Shown here one piece after another: positions 2,376 to 50,265 of a DNA stretch of 64,000 bases. Position 1 is the first letter of the stretch. Every line of letters begins with the position of its first letter. The notes below the pieces were generated by a model, which did not search any database, was not told the origin of the DNA, and worked only from the letters and a program-made list of their open reading frames with translations. This DNA is from Naegleria gruberi. Its lineage: Eukaryota. Both the position numbers and the translations under genes were made by a program. The stretch lies in the NCBI GenBank assembly GCA_000004985.1, contig GG738878.1; one strand, written 5' to 3'.

Positions 2376-3710
2376 TTATCCTGAAGCACCCTTCAAACCA
2401 CTTTCCAAATGATCAGCTTCACGATTTCTTCTAGTAGAATATTTATCACCAAAGTTTCTCAAATTATTAACCATTCCCTTATAATCATTCTTAGTCAATT
2501 GACCAAAAAATCCAGGAGTGGCCTTCTTAATACTTCCATATTGATGTTGGACACTGTAAGCAACTGATTGGACAGATGATGGCAAATCCTTGAAATTCTT
2601 GACAGCATTTGGATTTTTGGCAGCAGCTGCTTCATAATCTTTGGCCAAGGAGGCAAGTGACTTGTCCATAACTGCCTTATCAATGGCTTTAGCTTCAGCA
2701 GGTGATAGGGATAATGGATTCTTTGATAGGAAATTCTTGGCAGCTTGTTGTTTCAAACCAGTATATGGAGAAAGTTTATCGACTAAACTAGGTGAAAGTC
2801 CAAGAGATTTCAAACCCTTAACATTTTGTTGTCCAATATCGAAACCAGTACCAACAGTAACACCTGATTTACCAACGACAGTACCTGACTTGGATTGTGG
2901 AACGTAACCCTTAGTAGAGAATGCTTCATTCTTAGTAAGTAAACCCTTATCAATCTTGTAACCAGAAACAGTTGCAACAGAAGCAGCAGCAGGTTGTTGA
3001 GCTAGAGCTCTATTTTTGACAGATGTTTGAATGGCAGCAGCTGTCAACTTTCCAGTGACTGCAGGTTGAGCAGCAAAAGCAGCATTAAAACGAGCAGTTA
3101 ATGAATTGACACGTGGACCCTTAACATTCACAGCAGCAGCCTTAGCCATAGCAGAGAATGCCTTTGCCATATTTGGACCAACTAATCCAGTAAATGCCTT
3201 ACTCAATGTAGGACTAACTTTTGAGAATTTACTGGTAATTGAGTTGGCTAATTTGGAAAGAGAAGCACGAGCTTGAGCTGCTTTGAGACCTGCAGTACGA
3301 GTTCTACCTGCCATTCTACCTGCAAGACCCTTATTTGATTTGGTTGATTTGGAAGATGGTCCAGATCGTCCAGTTTTACCTGATGATCTACCATTGGATT
3401 TACCACCACTGGATCTTCCATTGGATCTACCTGATCTACCTGATCTACCTGATTGACCACTGGATCTTCCACCTCTGGAACCTCCTCTGCTACCAGAGCT
3501 ACCTCCACGGCTACCACCACCTCTGGAACCACCAGAACCTCCACGACCACCACCAGAACCACCGCCACCGCCACCGCCACTGGAACCACCCTTGTAAGAA
3601 TCTGCCAATTCGACAATTTCTGCCAAGAAGGAAGAGGATGCGGAAACTGCAATGATGGACACGGAAAGAATGGCCAAACAACACAAGATTGTGAATGAGA
3701 GTTTCTTCAT
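2376..3710 (-). CDS. secreted protein with a Gly/Ser/Arg-rich low-complexity region and a C-terminal phage-type (GH24) lysozyme-like domain
   Basis: A 444-aa ORF with an N-terminal signal peptide (MKKLSFTILCCLAILSVSIIAVSA) and an (RGG/SGG)n tract. The last ~190 aa resemble lambdoid and P21-type phage lysozymes. Examples are E..GYVP...SGVTVGTGFDIG against EG.SYIPYKD.VGVWTVCHGHTG, and NDYKGMVNNLRNFG...STRRNREADH against GDIKGACDQLRRW...TRREIERE. It is a paralog of 12966-14267. Confidence 0.7.
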   Translation of the reverse strand: MKKLSFTILCCLAILSVSIIAVSASSSFLAEIVELADSYKGGSSGGGGGGGSGGGRGGSGGSRGGGSRGGSSGSRGGSRGGRSSGQSGRSGRSGRSNGRSSGGKSNGRSSGKTGRSGPSSKSTKSNKGLAGRMAGRTRTAGLKAAQARASLSKLANSITSKFSKVSPTLSKAFTGLVGPNMAKAFSAMAKAAAVNVKGPRVNSLTARFNAAFAAQPAVTGKLTAAAIQTSVKNRALAQQPAAASVATVSGYKIDKGLLTKNEAFSTKGYVPQSKSGTVVGKSGVTVGTGFDIGQQNVKGLKSLGLSPSLVDKLSPYTGLKQQAAKNFLSKNPLSLSPAEAKAIDKAVMDKSLASLAKDYEAAAAKNPNAVKNFKDLPSSVQSVAYSVQHQYGSIKKATPGFFGQLTKNDYKGMVNNLRNFGDKYSTRRNREADHLESGLKGASG

Positions 3711-44107: not shown

Positions 44108-44816
44108 ATGAACAAAAGAAAAAGTCTTCATGCTAATTCTTCTAACAGCAGCAGATCATTCAGAGTATTAATATGTGGAGGTGGTGTGAGTGGTCTTGTA
44201 TTTGCTCATTACTTGCTCAATCAGGAAGGTTGTGAAGGAATGAAACTTCCAATTGAAATTACCTTTGTTGAGAAGGCAACTAGATATGCTCAGGTAGGAG
44301 CTTTGATTACTGTAGATGGTAGGTTCTTAGTTTGTTTTAATTGTTGTAGGCTAATATCTTTTTGAATGTTTATGAATGTAAACTAATCTAAATTACACTA
44401 AACTAACAATTACAAAAGGACAACAAACTTTGGATATTTTGGGAGATATTGGAGTTTCATCAACAACATTACACGTACCATTGGAGAAACATCACTATGT
44501 AGACTATAAGGGAAAATTAATTCGTGACTTTGATGCTTCGCTCATTCACAAATATAAGGATATTTCTAAACTATTCGAAAGGGCAACCGTACATTCGATT
44601 CTTTATGATAAAATTGGACCACAGATAGCAGATTTTAGATTTAAAACGGTGGTTCAGAGTATTTCTGAAACTTCTAGAGGACAAGGAGTCAAGATTCTTC
44701 TAGTTGACCGTAACACTTCATCATCAAATGATCGTTTATCCTTGGCGAGTGGAAGATGTGGAGTTTCACCTTCATTGCACATTGATCAGAATTTGTTAGG
44801 TCCTATTGATATCTGT
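44108..44816 (+). CDS. FAD-dependent monooxygenase, N-terminal part (exons 1-2) upstream of a transposon insertion
   Basis: Exon 1 is 44108..44318. It holds the Rossmann fingerprint RVLICGGGVSGLVFAHYL. The intron is 44319..44418 (GTAGGT..AAAG, phase 1). Exon 2 is 44419..44816 and ends at a stop (44817-44819). It lies just before the left inverted repeat of the piggyBac-like element. Confidence 0.65.
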
Positions 44817-44829
44817 TGAAAAGTTCACG

Positions 44830-47100
44830 CCGCTTTTTTGCAATGCTCCTTCAAACAATAGAATGCTCCCTTTTCCCGCCAATAAAAACCGTTTGGATTG
44901 TAAAAATGATAAAATTCTGTTCACTGTGAACGTGTAACTTCTATTCAAATATTCGTATGGATGAACGGTTAGAATTAATCAAAATGAAAAGAAAGAACGT
45001 AGACGCCTCCAGCACTAACAAAAAACAAGCTACACTCGATGGCTTTGTTACCTCCAATCAACAAAATAGCCAAGGAGGAACACAACAGGACCAACAAAAT
45101 AGCCAAGATCAGCAATCAAGCCAACTCAGTCCATCCAACGGCCAAAACCTAACACCTAAATACTCTGCTAAGCAGTTGGATGATGAAACTGATTGGATAG
45201 CATCTTTATTCAATTTTAACAAAGAAGGATTTGAAAAGGTTTCTTCCAACATTGTGTATCCTAAAATTACCGAAACTCCTACCACTCCTAAAACCATTCT
45301 GAGAAATGTAACTTGCACTGAGGTCAGCCTTGAACTTCTAATTTCAAACATGATTCCAAACCACTTTTGGCAAATACTATTGGACATATTAAACACTAAC
45401 TTGACCAGAGAGAGTACAACTGGAAAAGCATCTTCACACTCAAAGTATTACAATGATATTGATATCTCTCAGCTTTTCTCTTTTTTGGGAACTGTAATTA
45501 GCTTAGAAAACAACCATTCAAAGTTGAATGCCAATGCCAAAACCAATTTACAACAGCTTCGTGCAGAAAAGTTGGATAGCATGATTCCTGGTTATAGAAG
45601 ATACTTTTCTTTGATGAAATGTTTTGCTCCTTCTGACCAACAATTTGAATTGATTTCAACAGCATTAAACGATATCACTTTAAATGCTGTTACAATTGGT
45701 TCCAATTTTGTTGTGGACGAAACAGTGTATGCATATCAGATTTCCTCAATCGTTAAAGCAGAGGCTGAACTCTTGCAATGTCCAATTCCAGTAGTGTACA
45801 TTCCAAGAAAACCATATCCAAATGGACTTATGTCTTATAAGTTGTGTGTACTATTTCCTGGGTGTAGGAAACCTTATGTTTTAGCCATCCTTCCTCAATA
45901 CAAAGTTCCTATGGATTCCCCTCAGGAAGCAATGTTAAAATTGTTGAAAATGGTTCGTGAATGTACTGATCAAAACTTGCATATTACTGGTGATGCTGCA
46001 TTTGGTTCATTCACTATCTTTGATGAGCTAATCAAATTGAATGTTGTTGGCACTTTCTCTATTTCAGGTACTGAAAAGTCATGGATCTGGGATTTGTTGA
46101 AGAGAACACTCACTCATGGTAATTGGAAGGCTGCTGAATTTATTTCAAAATCTGTGATCGCTTCTATGCAAAGAAATCCTCAATACCAATCAGACAGAGA
46201 CAAGAAATATCACCATCTTGTTTCGAATGCATTTGATTTTGAACACTGCCAACCATTTCAGCAAACTCTTGCAAATATTCTACCTCCTTTTTGCAGAAAA
46301 ATACGGTGGAAAAATTGAAAGAAATTGGAAAGAAGGAACATATCAAATTAAGTAAGCTCACTAAGGATGAAATCATCCAGAAGATTCAATTTATTTGCAA
46401 CTCCACAAATGTAAAATCACTTCAACTACATGCTTTGCATTCGTTTGATCAGAATCAATTTAACGCTACCTCTGCTATCCATCATGACCATTATAGACGT
46501 ACTTTTAATCTTGTCGACATTCAAGATAAGTACCATTATAAGGCTAGATATGCCTATATCATCACTGAGTGGAGAACCAAATTGATGATCAGTTTATTGA
46601 ATGATCTATTTTATAACTTGTTCGCTATTATGAATGAAACTGTTCGAATCAAATATTCAGACTTTAGAAAACTGCTGGCCGAAACCTTTCTCTCTATGGG
46701 AAAGAAACTTGGCGCCAAAAAATAACTCTCCTTCCAATAAACTTCCATTTTAATTTAATTTCACACAAAAAAATTCACCAACTTTAACCAAGCATATCCT
46801 CCTTAATACGCAACTATTCGTAAAAAAAATTACATATGGTATTAGTATCTGATCTTATCTCTTACCACCACAAAATTCAATATTCGATATTAAGTAGTTG
46901 AGCGAAAAATCGCTTTTCCCAAAAAGGTATATGATGTCATAACTCACTAATTATCTCAATGAAAACAAAAGATTAAATATTCAAAAATGAATAGGATATA
47001 GTATACATGATATGAAATCATTCGTGTAAAATTCAAGATGTTATACCATGTATTAAACTAAATATTTCCTTTTAAAGAGGGAGCACTAGAAAAAAGCGGG
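44830..47100 (+). mobile_element. piggyBac-like DNA transposon (about 2.27 kb) with imperfect terminal or subterminal inverted repeats
   Basis: The left repeat CCGCTTTTTTGCAATGCTCC (44830-44849) and the right repeat GGGAGCACTAGAAAAAAGCGGG (47079-47100, whose reverse complement is CCCGCTTTTTTCTAGTGCTCCC) match at about 17 of 22 positions. They bracket one transposase-like coding region. I could not identify TTAA target-site duplications. Confidence 0.6.
44957..46725 (+). CDS. piggyBac-family (DDE_Tnp_1_7-like) transposase; two ORFs joined by a frameshift
   Basis: The ORFs are 44957..46318 (453 aa) and 46291..46725 (144 aa) in different frames. The switch falls at A-runs near 46291-46318. Hallmarks match piggyBac. 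ISQLFSFLGTVISLEN matches EIYAFFGILVMTAV. FVVDETVYAYQ matches LSIDESMIPFKGR (first D). PVVYIPRKPYPNGLMSYKLCVLF matches RQYIPNKPAKYGIKILMMCD. HITGDAAFGSFTIFDEL...VVGTFSI matches NITCDNWFTSIPLAKNL...IVGTVRSN (third D). The second catalytic Asp appears replaced (LFPGC against MMCDSG). I see no Cys-rich C-terminal domain. Confidence 0.7.
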
Positions 47101-47214
47101 AAAAACATTTCCACAGATATTGAAGAAGATGAGATTCAAGAAACTCCAAACAACAATCCCTCCACTCCAATCAAGTTCGAGGAGCCTCCTTCAAGTTTCA
47201 ACGAATTTAATCCA

Positions 47215-48411
47215 ATGAGGAGGGAGAATAGTCTTGGAACTCCAACCATGATGAAAGGTTCAGCTTCATTCTCTTCTCTTTCATCACTAAGTTCTCCATC
47301 TTCAAATCCTAACATGAGTCAACCAAATTTACTCATTGAAGAATTTGATTTGGTTGTTGGAGCTGATGGAATCAATTCTCAAACTAGAAATTTAGTATTT
47401 GGACCAGATATTCAATTTAAAAAGTATTTAAATGTAGGATATATGTGTTTCATGGTTGATTTGGTAAATGATGCAAACGATATGGATCCTGCAATAACTG
47501 GAGAGAAAATATCATTGGAACATTGTAAAATATTGAGTAAGAAAGTGAAGGAAGGAATTGAAAGTTCTCACACTGTGTCTTTCCTTCTCGATAAGGGACG
47601 ATACATGACCATTTCGAGAAATAAGAATCGTTGCTATGTTTCTTGTGCATTCACTTTGGATGAGATGGCTTCACAGAGTGAGGAATCAAATGAAGGAAAT
47701 ACTGAGAGCAGTAAGAAGGACAAGGAAAAACGAACAAGCACATCTGGATCTTCATCTGGCTCATCTGATGAAGATAAAGACAAGAGCTCAGCATCTTCAT
47801 CATCTGGTAGTAGAAAACTCTACACTCGACAAAACAAGTTGGATATTGATGTTGTCAAGAGAAAGCAATTCCTTGTGGAAAAGTTTGCAGATGTTCAACA
47901 CCTCTTCCCTCAACTGATTCAGTTATTGGGTAATTCAAATTCAATTTACTATGATGATTTGGCTCAAATTCACATTGACAAGTGGCATAAGGGAAGAATA
48001 GTCTTGTTGGGAGACAGTTGTCAAGCACTGACTCCACTCAGTGGTAAAGGTGCTTCAATGGCTCTTGTTGGGGCCAAGACTCTTGCTGACGAACTGAAAC
48101 GAGTACTAGTTCAACATGCCAAGATGGATGGTGTCGATTATATTCGTGACATTCCTGTGGAAAAATTACTCAATCATCAGGATATGCCATATTTGAAAGA
48201 TGCTCTCGAATCATATGAACGTAAAATGCTGGATCGTATCAAGGAAATCCAGAGGAAAACAATTAGAGAAGGAGATTTCTTTTTAACAACCTCTGCCTTT
48301 AAGCAATTCATTAGAAACTCGACACTGAAATACATGCCTAAAAAACTATTCCTAAAGCTTTCCAAAAAGGATGCTCAATCCAATGAAGATCTTCAATCTT
48401 CCAAACCTTAA
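47215..48411 (+). CDS. FAD-dependent monooxygenase, C-terminal part, downstream of the transposon
   Basis: The frame is open from 47062, and the ORF-track start is 47215. It holds the FAD-monooxygenase motifs DLVVGADGINSQTRNLVFG (DG/GADG motif) and GRIVLLGDSCQALTPLSGKGASMALVGAKTLADEL (the GD...H/GxG C-terminal FAD motif). Together with 44108-44816 this makes one complete aromatic-ring-hydroxylase-type enzyme. Confidence 0.7.
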   Translation: MRRENSLGTPTMMKGSASFSSLSSLSSPSSNPNMSQPNLLIEEFDLVVGADGINSQTRNLVFGPDIQFKKYLNVGYMCFMVDLVNDANDMDPAITGEKISLEHCKILSKKVKEGIESSHTVSFLLDKGRYMTISRNKNRCYVSCAFTLDEMASQSEESNEGNTESSKKDKEKRTSTSGSSSGSSDEDKDKSSASSSSGSRKLYTRQNKLDIDVVKRKQFLVEKFADVQHLFPQLIQLLGNSNSIYYDDLAQIHIDKWHKGRIVLLGDSCQALTPLSGKGASMALVGAKTLADELKRVLVQHAKMDGVDYIRDIPVEKLLNHQDMPYLKDALESYERKMLDRIKEIQRKTIREGDFFLTTSAFKQFIRNSTLKYMPKKLFLKLSKKDAQSNEDLQSSKP

Positions 48412-48592: not shown

Positions 48593-50265
48593 ATGCCACC
48601 AAACAACAAGGTTCGACCAGTCTCATCGAATACGACCACAACAACAGCATCGGAATCTAAATCTACTAAAGCATCATCGCCTCCTTCAACAAGTGCCTCA
48701 GTTAATAATCAACAAAATTCCTTGAATAATACAGTTGCATCAAATGCTGATACATCCTCTTCGTATACAACAACAACAAGATCTAATTATGATAACATGT
48801 CCGATTCGGGTGATGAGACTGGTATTAAAGTTGTGGTGAGAATGAGACCTTTCAATGATAGAGAAATGAAATTGAAAGCACAACCTTGTATAACAATAAC
48901 AAAAGCGAATAGAGAAGTTCTTATTAAGAGAAAAGACAAGGAAGATAAGAAATTCTATTTTGACGATGTGTTTGATGAGAATTCTACGCAACAGGAAGTT
49001 TATTCATCAACTGGTCAGAGAGTTTTAGATAGATATGTGTTAGGTTTTAATGTACGTATTAATTTGATGAGCAATTCTGAACTGTTTCAAAATATTTTAC
49101 ATATTTATTTCTGGATTAGGCTTGTATATTTGCGTATGGTCAAACTGGATCTGGTAAATCTGTAAGTAATCCATCTCTCTATTCAATGTGACAATTTAAA
49201 TAGTGGACAATGCAAGGTATGAAAGGAAATCAAGAAAAGGAAGGAATCATGTCAAGATTTGTCAGAGAATTGTTTGGATATGTGGAACGAGAAAAGGAAA
49301 AGACTGACATCACTATTAAGGCATCCTATTTGGAAATTTACAATGAAAATATTTTGGACTTGTTGAATCCTCATAGTGGAAGAGTGAGTTATGAAATAAG
49401 AGAAGACAAAGTGAAAGGAACATATATTACAAACCTTATTGAAAAACCAATCACGACAGATACTGAGCTGAATGAAATTTTGGATGAGGGTGCAACAAGG
49501 AGAACTGTTGGAGAAACAAAAATGAATCAAGAATCGTCCAGATCTCATGGTATTCTTCAAATTTGTATGGAACAGGTTGATAAGGGAGATGAGGATGGTT
49601 TCAGCTATAGATCCAATAAGATTTCACTCGTTGACTTGGCTGGTTCTGAAAGACAATCAGCTACTGAAGCAACAGGTGATAGATTGAAGGAAGGAGCTAA
49701 AATCAACTTGTCACTCTCCAACTTGGGTAATGTCATTAATGCACTTGTAAAGAAGACAAACTTTGTACCATATCGTAACTCCAAATTGACCAGATTATTG
49801 AAAGATTCAATTGGTGGTAACTCCTATACGTTGTTGGTTGTTTGTGTGAGTCCTGCCGATGTCAACGCTGAAGAATCATTGAGCACTCTGTATTTTGCTG
49901 ATAGGGCTAAACAAATCAAGAACAAACTCAAGGTTTCTAGAGGAGATCCTCGATTGGAAAAGATTGCAGAACTTCTCGAGATTGAAAAGCAATTGAGAGC
50001 TAGGGTTTTAGAACTGGAAACTGAATTATCGAAATATACCACTGTCCCTCCACCAGTGCAAAAGAGTCTTGCCACGAGTTCGACGGCGGTTGGTGAATCC
50101 ATTAGTGCTTCTCAATTTGCCAAAATTAAGAATGACATGAAGGGAGAATCAAAAATTGTACAAACTGATCCAGTTCAATTCGCGGATGGAAAAACATATG
50201 AACCCCTCGATATTGAAAATCCTCAACAACCACCAAAGAAGCAGGGTTGTTGTTGCATTCAATAA
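48593..50265 (+). CDS. kinesin-like motor protein, three exons
   Basis: Exon 1 is 48593..49051. Intron 1 is 49052..49119 (68 nt, GTACGT..TTAG). Exon 2 is 49120..49161 and encodes the P-loop ACIFAYGQTGSGKS. Intron 2 is 49162..49203 (42 nt, GTAAGT..ATAG). Exon 3 is 49204..50265. The motor motifs are IKVVVRMRPFNDRE, GQTGSGKSWTMQG, SSRSHGILQI (switch I), LVDLAGSER (switch II) and VPYRNSKLTRLLKDS. A short coiled coil follows. The C-terminus is ...KKQGCCCIQ. Confidence 0.85.

What the first reader, a model, noticed from the sequence alone, without database searches (positions are those of the whole stretch)
44108..48411. piggyBac-like transposase sits between the two halves of an FAD-dependent monooxygenase gene, flanked by imperfect inverted repeats
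The Rossmann/GxGxxG half of the monooxygenase (44108-44816) and the half carrying the GADG motif (47062-48411) are in the same orientation. Together they make one complete enzyme. Between them lies 2.3 kb holding a single piggyBac-family transposase reading frame. It is bracketed by CCGCTTTTTTGCAATGCTCC (44830) and the inverted match GGGAGCACTAGAAAAAAGCGGG (47079). Introns elsewhere in the window are 42-190 nt, so this is not an ordinary intron. Either the insertion disrupts the gene, or the transposon now sits inside a giant intron and must be spliced out. The transposase itself is unusual. By eye the second catalytic Asp of the DDD triad is replaced (KLCVLFPGC against piggyBac ILMMCDSG). I see no Cys-rich C-terminal domain and no TTAA target duplications. 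That pattern could mean a decaying or domesticated PGBD-like copy.
Basis: partly seen in the sequence, partly recalled or inferred. Interest (0 to 1): 0.75.

Follow-up and report, generated by a model that had tools for sequence, protein, structure and literature searches.

The report
Young piggyBac-like transposon splitting a monooxygenase gene
A recently inserted, already broken copy of an unusual piggyBac-type jumping gene sits inside the coding sequence of a Naegleria gruberi flavin monooxygenase gene; this is an ordinary gene disruption, and the more interesting part is the little-described transposon family it belongs to.

Summary
The window comes from Naegleria gruberi. The described layout is real. 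A 2,304-bp element (44813-47116) lies between the two halves of one FAD monooxygenase gene. The Willaertia magna orthologue is a single compact gene with nothing at that position. The inverted repeat is longer than reported, at 44 nt per arm, and it ends in ATAT on both sides. Removing the element plus one ATAT restores a 631-aa reading frame, so the insertion hit an exon, not an old intron.

The encoded protein belongs to the piggyBac superfamily by profile and by predicted fold. It has no Cys-rich C-terminal domain, and a SAP-like module lies before the third Asp.

The 453-aa/144-aa ORF break is a private 13-nt deletion. At least two more N. gruberi copies and one metagenome copy read straight through it. 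Homology between copies stops exactly at ...ACAGATAT. Substitutions between copies are almost all synonymous.

My verdict is a young, low-copy transposon family and a defective copy that disrupts a gene, not a domesticated gene. Removal of the element from the mRNA is possible in frame, but the donor site is poor. Interest is modest.

The parts
44108..44318 (+). Monooxygenase exon 1 (start codon, Rossmann GGGVSG dinucleotide-binding motif)
   Evidence: This is the ORF. It aligns to Willaertia magna P0014 residues 10-100.
44319..44418 (+). Monooxygenase intron 1, 100 nt, GTAGGT...AAAAG
   Evidence: Removing it joins the frames and gives ...ITVDGQQTLDILG, which matches W. magna ...LTLAGQEIVDILN. 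W. magna has a small intron at the same position.
44419..44812 (+). Monooxygenase exon 2, left part, up to and including the left ATAT (44809-44812)
   Evidence: The ORF stays open up to the element. The first stop codon, TGA at 44817-44819, lies inside the element's terminal repeat.
44809..44812 (.). Left copy of the ATAT tetranucleotide (putative 4-bp target-site duplication)
   Evidence: It is a direct repeat of 47117-47120. Removing 44813-47120 restores a 631-aa ORF.
44813..47116 (+). Transposon body, 2,304 bp, with termini CTGT...ACAG
   Evidence: The body is bounded by the 44-nt inverted repeat. The right boundary is confirmed by a second copy, L004, whose homology ends at window 47120.
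44813..44852 (+). Left terminal inverted repeat; the motif AATGCTCC recurs at 44842 and 44862
44957..46243 (+). Transposase coding sequence upstream of the deletion. The start is at 44957 or at 44984 (MKRKN, as in the JGI model and in P0002). D1 is the codon at 45716-45718 and D2 the codon at 45992-45994.
   Evidence: This stretch is 100% identical to NAEGRDRAFT_80349. D254 and D346 are invariant in the 12-sequence alignment. D346 aligns to piggyBac D346.
46243..46244 (+). Site of the private 13-nt deletion (ACCTCACTAATTT is present in the other copies); it causes the frame 2 to frame 1 shift
   Evidence: The DNA alignment with L004 shows it. P0022, P0023 and P0024 all read FDFETS(L/P)ISLPTISANSCKYSTSFLQKN straight through this point. 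Re-inserting the 13 nt gives a 593-aa ORF.
46244..46725 (+). Transposase coding sequence downstream of the deletion (frame 1). It holds a SAP-like module at about 46300-46400, the D3 codon at 46516-46518 (FNLVDIQD) and the stop at 46723-46725.
   Evidence: The family profile hits the Ku70 SAP domain 1jjr at E=7.5e-7, and 4 of 12 members hit PF02037. The LVD motif aligns to piggyBac GGVD, which holds D447.
47077..47116 (-). Right terminal inverted repeat
47117..47120 (.). Right copy of ATAT
   Evidence: ATAT also follows ...CCACAG in the independent copy L004, and the flanks are unrelated beyond it.
47121..48411 (+). Monooxygenase exon 2, right part (GADG and GD(x)6P..G motifs, stop at 48409-48411). 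The annotated model NAEGRDRAFT_69502 begins only at the Met at 47215.

Best explanation
The region holds one gene for a class A FAD-dependent monooxygenase of Naegleria gruberi. Its second exon has been hit by a cut-and-paste DNA transposon of the piggyBac superfamily.

The element is 2.3 kb long and has imperfect terminal inverted repeats of about 40 bp that begin CTGT and end ACAG. It sits at an ATAT tetranucleotide that is now present on both sides. I read this as a 4-bp palindromic target duplication made by a 4-nt staggered cut, analogous to TTAA in canonical piggyBac.

Its single gene encodes a transposase of about 593 aa with an intact DDD triad and the piggyBac fold. It has no C-terminal Cys-rich domain. 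A SAP-like helix-extended-helix module lies between the beta-stranded insertion domain and the helix that carries the third Asp. I infer that this module replaces the Cys-rich domain as the accessory DNA-binding part.

The family is young and low in copy number in N. gruberi. Its transposase evolved under purifying selection, but this particular copy carries a 13-nt deletion that separates D1 and D2 from D3. It therefore cannot make an active enzyme and could move only with help from another copy.

In the assembled haplotype the insertion puts a stop codon 5 nt into the element, so the monooxygenase is most likely inactivated. The insertion falls in a poorly conserved, low-complexity linker of the enzyme.

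Shown here: gene identity, insertion boundaries, family membership by profile and fold, the intact triad, the deletion, the multiple copies and the selection pattern. Inferred: ATAT as target duplication, the role of the SAP module and the loss of host gene function.
For: - Organism and gene models: the ORFs are 100% identical to N. gruberi NAEGRDRAFT_80349 and NAEGRDRAFT_69502.
- One gene, not two: W. magna P0014 (700 aa) aligns to both halves, its residues 10-184 to the N-terminal half and 362-698 to the C-terminal half. Its locus is 2,206 nt for 700 aa, with only two small introns and nothing in the linker. The reconstituted protein scores higher on PF01494, with two matched stretches.
- Insertion into an exon: the ORFs abut the element on both sides, and removing 44813-47120 gives an uninterrupted 631-aa ORF.
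- Terminal repeats: 44-nt arms; the 20-mer match is expected 0.00 times by chance.
- Right end: the independent copy L004 aligns at 95% up to window 47120 and is unrelated beyond it.
- Family membership: the 12-sequence profile hits piggyBac 6x67 at E=3e-7 and piggyBat 9c0f at E=3e-6. Seven of 12 members hit PF13843, best E=9e-12. The AlphaFold model of homologue P0002 (pLDDT 77, pTM 0.73) has piggyBac (E=1e-12) and piggyBat (E=4e-9) as its top Foldseek PDB hits, followed by Tn5.
- Catalytic triad: D254 and D346 are invariant and D521 (D525 in the repaired protein) is present in at least 90% of sequences. The alignment to piggyBac D346 and D447 is shown, and the piggyBac triad itself is given in PMC7351741.
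- Further copies: P0022, P0023 and P0024. P0023 differs from the repaired window protein at 3 of 512 aligned residues, and P0022 at 3 of 190.
- Deletion.
- Selection: between the window copy and L004 there are 14 synonymous and 1 nonsynonymous single-site differences in 1,187 coding nt. L004 has four private deletions.
Against: - Only one copy shows both ends. ATAT could therefore be the last 4 nt of the inverted repeat rather than a target duplication; a 2-bp TG duplication would also restore the frame.
- The window protein alone hits Pfam DDE_Tnp_1_7 only at E=9e-4, 19 bits, below the gathering score of 22.4. Membership rests on the family profile and on the model of a homologue that is 36% identical.
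- No transcript data were available, so loss of monooxygenase function is inferred, not shown.
- The full N. gruberi assembly could not be searched. The copy number (at least 3) comes from annotated proteins only.
- The homologue P0002 sits between other genes with no clear inverted repeats, so some members of the clade might be immobile.
Confidence: 0.8

Rival explanations
1. The element behaves as an intron, in the manner of an introner. Its ends provide GT (44815) and AG (47116). Splicing there would leave CT plus one ATAT, 6 nt in all, and add two codons (PIDI-YI-EEDE). The monooxygenase would then stay functional, and the transposon would be a tolerated giant intron of 2,302 nt.
For: The GT at 44815 and the AG at 47116 lie at the outer ends of the inverted repeat, and using them keeps the frame, giving a 633-aa protein. 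Because the first 4 nt of both repeats are CTGT, the same GT/AG geometry and 6-nt remnant would arise in either orientation (sequence). Introners that add codons on insertion have been described (PMC9860276). The insertion lies in a non-conserved linker where two extra residues would be harmless.
Against: The three donor sites I could verify in this window are GTAGGT, GTACGT and GTAAGT. The candidate GTTGAA differs from them at positions +3, +5 and +6. Many other GT/AG pairs also keep the frame, so being in frame is weak evidence. Known introns here are 42-100 nt, against 2,302 nt for this one. No spliced protein model or transcript-derived protein was found. Only one copy is shown to lie within a gene.
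Confidence: 0.08
2. The element is removed from the mRNA by a route that does not use the spliceosome and is triggered by pairing of the inverted repeats. This would resemble the SOS splicing described for DNA transposons in C. elegans and human cells, and would partly rescue the host gene.
For: As RNA the two 44-nt arms can form a duplex of -42 kcal/mol, against -15 +/- 3.3 for shuffled arms. The element is in the same orientation as the host gene, so it would be transcribed through. [quoted passage not shown]
Against: The system is described only in animals. I did not test whether Naegleria has the factors involved. I found no transcript evidence.
Confidence: 0.05
3. This is a domesticated piggyBac-derived host gene (PGBD-like) nested inside a long intron, kept for a cellular function rather than for mobility.
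For: Substitutions between copies are almost all synonymous. The distant homologue P0002 is an intact 624-aa ORF at one fixed locus in three metagenome samples, with no clear inverted repeats.
Against: The 44-nt terminal repeats are kept. There are at least three near-identical copies in one genome plus one elsewhere, at different sites. Frameshifting indels are private to single copies. No annotated orthologue from other Naegleria species appeared in two searches. An excess of synonymous changes is also what an active transposon lineage would show.
Confidence: 0.03
4. The two halves are separate genes, or the arrangement is an assembly artefact.
For: The public annotation lists only the C-terminal half as a gene (P0013) and does not annotate the N-terminal half.
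Against: The W. magna orthologue spans both halves in one gene, and the first intron position is conserved. The frames match exactly across the element. The boundaries coincide with the inverted repeats, and the right end also with the end of homology to an independent copy.
Confidence: 0.02

Closest known systems
piggyBac superfamily DNA transposons (Trichoplusia ni piggyBac, Myotis piggyBat; Pfam DDE_Tnp_1_7)
   Same: It shares the RNase H-like DDD transposase with a three-stranded beta insertion domain and flanking helical DNA-binding region. piggyBac and piggyBat are its best profile and fold matches. All three catalytic Asp residues are conserved. It is a single-gene element with terminal inverted repeats and a 4-bp palindromic A/T-only flanking repeat, and precise removal would restore the host sequence.
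   Different: The flanking tetranucleotide is ATAT, not TTAA. The termini are CTGT...ACAG, not CCC...GGG. There is no C-terminal Cys-rich domain, which piggyBac needs for activity (PMC7351741). A SAP-like module is inserted before the helix that carries D3. About 13 extra residues lie between D1 and the PIPVVYIPRKP motif. The window protein on its own falls below the Pfam gathering score.
Domesticated piggyBac-derived genes (human PGBD1-5, ciliate PiggyMac and Tpb2)
   Different: Those genes lack their own terminal repeats, sit at fixed positions and are conserved as host genes. Here the repeats are present, copies lie at several sites, and individual copies carry private frameshifts.
Introners (intron-generating DNA transposons; PMC9860276, PMC12130899)
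   Same: It is a DNA transposon with terminal repeats lying inside a coding exon in the sense orientation. Its ends contain GT and AG in a geometry that would leave a multiple of 3 nt.
   Different: Introners are short, non-autonomous and present in tens to thousands of copies, and they are seen to be spliced. This is a 2.3-kb transposase-coding element known from a handful of copies, with a poor donor site and no splicing evidence.
Kolobok superfamily (reported in Naegleria; PMC9587614)
   Same: It is a DDD/E cut-and-paste element with a 4-bp A/T palindromic target, and Kolobok elements occur in this genus.
   Different: Kolobok elements have TTAA duplications and 5'-RR...YY-3' termini. The protein here matches piggyBac and piggyBat, and then Tn5, by profile and fold. 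I ran no comparison against Kolobok transposases.

Membership tests
piggyBac superfamily | Transposase homologous to DDE_Tnp_1_7, with the piggyBac fold (RNase H-like core plus beta insertion domain) | tested here: met
   The family profile hits 6x67 at E=3e-7 and 9c0f at E=3e-6. Seven of 12 members hit PF13843. The Foldseek top hits for the P0002 model are 6x67 (E=1e-12) and 9c0f (E=4e-9). Caveat: the window protein alone gives E=9e-4, below the gathering score.
piggyBac superfamily | DDD catalytic triad (D268, D346, D447 in T. ni piggyBac) | tested here: met
   The triad is D254 (VDET), D346 (GDAAF) and D521 (D525 in the repaired protein; NLVD). The first two are invariant and the third is present in at least 90% of sequences. 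D2 and D3 are aligned directly to piggyBac. D1 is assigned from the DExxxx[FY] motif and from its position on a predicted strand.
piggyBac superfamily | TTAA target-site duplication | tested here: not met
   The flanks are ...ATTG ATAT|CTGT... and ...ACAG|ATAT TGAA.... The independent copy L004 also has ACAG|ATAT. So a 4-bp palindrome is present, but it is ATAT.
piggyBac superfamily | C-terminal Cys-rich (zinc-binding) domain | tested here: not met
   The C-terminus after D3 has no Cys cluster in any of the 12 aligned members. In the P0002 model it is helical to the end.
piggyBac superfamily | Terminal inverted repeats, with precise excision | tested here: inconclusive
   Repeats are present: 44 nt, 77% complementary. 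Precise removal would restore the ORF, but excision itself cannot be tested with these tools.
Domesticated piggyBac-derived gene (PGBD-like) | Loss of terminal repeats, a single fixed locus, and an intact ORF kept as a host gene | tested here: not met
   The repeats are kept. There are at least 3 copies in N. gruberi plus one in a metagenome, at other sites. This copy is frameshifted.
Introner | Element is removed by the spliceosome using splice sites provided by its ends or target duplication | not testable with these tools
   An in-frame GT(44815)/AG(47116) pair exists. The donor GTTGAA does not match the verified GTANGT donors. No RNA data were available.
Introner | Many near-identical copies located inside genes | tested here: inconclusive
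   Only annotated proteins could be searched. They reveal a few copies, and only this one is shown to lie inside a gene. There are no further copies in the 64-kb window.
Class A flavoprotein monooxygenase (Pfam FAD_binding_3, PF01494) | N-terminal GxGxxG Rossmann motif, DG (GADG) motif and C-terminal GD motif in one polypeptide | tested here: met
   The motifs GGGVSG, VVGADG and GDSCQALTPLSGKG are present in the reconstituted 631-aa protein. It hits PF01494 at E=4e-13, 49.7 bits, against a cut-off of 22.
SOS-splicing substrate | Inverted terminal repeats able to base-pair in the host transcript | tested here: met
   The duplex energy is -42 kcal/mol, against -15 +/- 3.3 for shuffled arms. Host factors and actual excision were not tested.

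The most novel reading that the evidence does not exclude
The element could be a transposase-coding 'proto-introner'. Both repeats begin CTGT and the target duplication is 4 bp. An insertion in either orientation would therefore carry GT 3 nt in from one end and AG at the other, and removal from the mRNA would leave exactly 6 nt. Removal could be by the spliceosome or by pairing of the repeats. Exon insertions would then be survivable, and this piggyBac-like clade could be a source of new introns in Heterolobosea.
Probability: 0.08. Interest if true: 0.75.

Novelty: new variant of a known kind. Interest (0 to 1): 0.33.

Why it matters
For the genome itself the result is mostly corrective.
- NAEGRDRAFT_69502 is a truncated model of a monooxygenase gene split by a transposon.
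- NAEGRDRAFT_80349 is a frameshifted transposase.
- NAEGRDRAFT_76570 is probably a chimeric model that fuses a transposase to a downstream gene.

More broadly, the element represents a divergent branch of the piggyBac superfamily with three departures from the canonical type: an ATAT flank instead of TTAA, a SAP-like module, and no Cys-rich domain. This branch is abundant in environmental protist data. It has 258 clusters (at 50% identity) with E<=1e-30, and none of the ten I looked up has a functional name.

If its target preference really is ATAT, it would be a natural example of altered tetranucleotide specificity in a transposase family that is widely used for genome engineering. It would also be a candidate tool for Naegleria, for which I believe (from my own knowledge, not checked here) few genetic tools exist. 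As a biological surprise it is modest, because a transposon in a gene is ordinary.

Tried and rejected
1. An intron inside the transposase gene (GT at 46220 to AG at 46296, 77 nt) joins the two ORFs in frame. I rejected it because homologues conserve HHLxxNAF across that donor site and no other GT lies in the interval.
2. A one-base slip or programmed frameshift at the T5 run (46288-46292) would give a 589-aa protein. The DNA alignment with L004 and the proteins P0022, P0023 and P0024 supersede this idea. The true lesion is a 13-nt deletion 45 nt upstream.
3. An automatic splice-site model built by EM over ORF-bridging GT..AG candidates in the window converged on coding-like noise, and I discarded it. 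I used three introns verified by hand instead.
4. I looked for terminal repeats around the homologue P0002 (locus L001). No convincing pair turned up, only a weak resemblance: AATATCTGTCGAAGCGT at 1499-1515 against the window's ATATCTGTKGAAAWGTT.
5. A shared ATAT or CTGT end among distant relatives was not seen. L012, L016 and L054 have their own, different repeats, and their duplications could not be read from the short contigs.
6. Scans of viral and prokaryotic genome collections with a degenerate repeat pattern found 0 matches.
7. Retrieval of DNA for the other N. gruberi copies failed; the proteins are not on record in the contig index.
8. Insertion into a pre-existing intron is rejected. 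The coding frames run right up to the element on both sides, and the flanks offer no room for splice signals.

Full report
**Source and layout.** The window is from Naegleria gruberi. ORF 44957-46318 is identical to NAEGRDRAFT_80349, and ORF 47215-48411 is identical to NAEGRDRAFT_69502. G+C content is about 35% throughout, with no compositional break at the element.

**The host gene.**
- An ORF starts at 44108 and carries a Rossmann GGGVSG motif. It is interrupted by a 100-nt intron (44319-44418, GTAGGT...AG) and continues to 44812.
- A second ORF on the same strand is open from inside the insert to 48411. It carries VVGADG and GDSCQALTPLSGKG and hits Pfam FAD_binding_3.
- The Willaertia magna protein P0014 (700 aa) aligns to both halves: its residues 10-184 to the N-terminal half (E=1e-25) and residues 362-698 to the C-terminal half (E=1e-55). 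A non-conserved, low-complexity linker lies between them.
- The W. magna locus is 2,206 nt for 700 aa. It has two small introns, one at the same position as N. gruberi intron 1, and nothing in the linker.
- The reconstituted N. gruberi protein scores 49.7 bits on PF01494 with two matched stretches, against 33 bits for the C-terminal half alone.
- So this is one gene that has been split. The public annotation keeps only the C-terminal part.

**The insertion boundaries.**
- It is part of a 44-nt repeat, 77% complementary, with arms 44809-44852 and 47077-47120.
- The outermost four bases of both arms are ATAT. Because ATAT is a palindrome, it is also a direct repeat.
- Removing 44813-47120 (the element plus one ATAT) gives an uninterrupted 631-aa ORF reading ...GPIDIEEDEIQ....
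- The first stop codon in the upstream frame lies 5 nt inside the element.
- A 1,658-bp metagenome contig (L004, ENA ERZ929261) carries another copy. It aligns at 95% from window 45536 to exactly 47120 (...TTTCCACAGATAT) and is unrelated beyond that point.
- This fixes the right end of the element. It also shows that ATAT follows ACAG at an independent insertion site.
- I read ATAT as a 4-bp target duplication by analogy with TTAA. With only one two-ended copy available, I cannot exclude that ATAT belongs to the repeat, in which case a TG duplication would also fit.

**The transposase.**
- Alone, the 453-aa ORF hits DDE_Tnp_1_7 only weakly (E=9e-4, below the gathering score).
- It has a set of relatives at 22-36% identity. 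Seven of the 12 aligned members hit PF13843, with a best E-value of 9e-12, and four hit the SAP domain.
- A profile of the 12 sequences hits T. ni piggyBac (6x67, E=3e-7), piggyBat (9c0f, E=3e-6) and the Ku70 SAP domain (1jjr, E=7.5e-7).
- An AlphaFold model of the intact homologue P0002 (pLDDT 77, pTM 0.73) has piggyBac and piggyBat as its best Foldseek PDB matches (E=1e-12 and 4e-9), followed by Tn5.
- In the alignment, D254 (VDET) and D346 (GDAAF) are invariant. The Asp of NLVD (D521, or D525 in the repaired protein) is present in at least 90% of sequences.
- HMMER aligns GDAAF to piggyBac ITCDNWF (D346) and NLVD to GGVD (D447). The piggyBac triad D268/D346/D447 is taken from PMC7351741.
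The triad is intact.
- There is no Cys-rich C-terminal domain.
- In the model, three beta strands (the insertion domain) are followed by a disordered linker, a helix-extended-helix SAP-like module, and then the helices that carry D3.
- That the SAP module replaces the Cys-rich domain in binding the transposon ends is my inference.

**Why there are two ORFs.** I first tried an intron and then a slip at a T5 run. Both are wrong.
- A profile search and a cluster look-up revealed further copies: NAEGRDRAFT_61752 (P0022), NAEGRDRAFT_76570 (P0023) and the metagenome protein P0024.
- All three read FDFETS(L/P)ISLPTISANSCKYSTSFLQKN straight through the break.
- The DNA alignment with L004 shows that the window copy lacks 13 nt (ACCTCACTAATTT) between 46243 and 46244.
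- Re-inserting these 13 nt gives a continuous 593-aa protein.
- The window copy therefore encodes D1 and D2 in one frame and D3 in another, and is defective.

**Age and selection.**
- The repaired window protein differs from P0023 at 3 of 512 aligned residues, plus an 11-aa indel at a 33-nt tandem repeat. It differs from P0022 at 3 of 190 residues.
- Against L004 there are 15 single-site differences in 1,187 coding nt. Fourteen are synonymous. Two of the 15 fall in one codon and together give L to F, so at most 2 codons change the protein.
- There are also 9 differences in 395 non-coding nt.
- L004 has private deletions of 1, 17, 23 and 2 nt.
- This is the pattern of a transposon lineage whose transposase was under selection until recently and whose individual copies are now decaying. 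It is not the pattern of a domesticated gene.

**The wider family.**
- A full HMMER scan of 1.84 billion representative proteins finds 258 clusters at E<=1e-30 and 1,058 at E<=1e-10.
- The ten top clusters I looked up are unnamed metagenome proteins on contigs of about 2-5 kb.
- Fifty-nine metagenome loci encode relatives. Some have their own terminal repeats: 29 nt perfect in L012, about 41 nt in L016, and 17 plus 15 nt in L054.
- P0002 lies between genes and has no clear repeats.
- PiggyBac-class repeats have been counted in N. lovaniensis by RepeatMasker (PMC6125883). The presence of the superfamily in the genus is therefore not new.

**Is the insert removed from the mRNA?**
- GT at 44815 and AG at 47116 sit at the outer ends of the repeats. 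Using them keeps the frame, gives 633 aa and leaves 6 extra nt. By the symmetry of the CTGT termini, the same would hold in either orientation.
- Against this, the three donors I could verify by conserved protein sequence are GTAGGT, GTACGT and GTAAGT. GTTGAA fits them poorly. Dozens of other GT/AG pairs also keep the frame, and 2.3 kb is far outside the local intron size range.
- The arms could pair as RNA (-42 kcal/mol against -15 +/- 3.3 for shuffled arms). This is the trigger for SOS splicing in animals (PMC12779559), but nothing shows that such a system exists in Naegleria.
- No transcript-derived sequences could be retrieved.
- I rate simple disruption of this haplotype's gene as most likely.

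**Verdict.** This is a young, defective copy of a divergent piggyBac-superfamily transposon inserted in an exon. It is not a domesticated gene and its catalytic triad is not broken. The departures from canonical piggyBac make the family a new variant of a known kind: ATAT flanks, CTGT...ACAG ends, a SAP-like module and no Cys-rich domain. The insertion event itself is ordinary.

Noticed in passing
window 45059-45107: A 33-nt tandem duplication (CAACAAAATAGCCAAG occurs twice, 33 nt apart) lies in the low-complexity N-terminus of the transposase. The paralogue P0023 lacks one unit, giving an 11-aa indel.
   Followed up: partly
N. gruberi protein P0023 (NAEGRDRAFT_76570, 9.8-kb scaffold): This 721-aa gene model follows the transposase up to ...LVDIQDKY. 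It then continues into an unrelated Ser/Asn-rich sequence with a C-terminal hydrophobic stretch that looks like a transmembrane segment. It is probably a chimeric model that splices from a GT inside the transposase (AAG|GTACCA) into a neighbouring gene. If so, that copy also lies next to or inside a gene in the same orientation.
   Followed up: no
L064 about 3300-3360, compared with window 44319-44418: The first intron of the monooxygenase gene is at the same position in Willaertia magna and N. gruberi, after ...L(T/I)(L/V)(A/D) and before G. The W. magna intron is in frame and free of stop codons, so it reads through as VSFLFKKKCKIIVRIKLKK in the raw ORF.
   Followed up: partly
window 44108-44819: The N-terminal half of the monooxygenase is not represented by any annotated N. 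gruberi protein among the search hits. The public model NAEGRDRAFT_69502 starts at an internal Met (47215) and lacks the FAD-binding Rossmann motif.
   Followed up: yes
L001 1441-1515: Upstream of the homologue P0002 there are two short motifs, CCTGTTGAAAATCG and AATATCTGTCGAAGCGT. They resemble the outer 17 nt of the N. gruberi repeats (ATATCTGTKGAAAWGTT) and lie at a similar distance from the start codon. No matching partner was found downstream.
   Followed up: partly
metagenome relatives P0025-P0165: The ten top relatives I looked up sit on contigs of about 1.8-5 kb, roughly the size of one element. This would fit assemblies that break at a repeated sequence. None of these proteins has a functional name.
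   Followed up: no
window 44842-44869 and 47079-47085: There are sub-terminal repeats inside the ends. AATGCTCC occurs twice on the left (44842 and 44862). TGCTCCC occurs once on each end in inverted orientation. CCCGC is also present on both ends. These could be transposase binding sites arranged asymmetrically, as in piggyBac.
   Followed up: no
window 48593-50265: The downstream neighbour is a kinesin motor gene with 68-nt and 42-nt introns (49052-49119 and 49162-49203). I used it only as a source of verified splice sites.
   Followed up: partly
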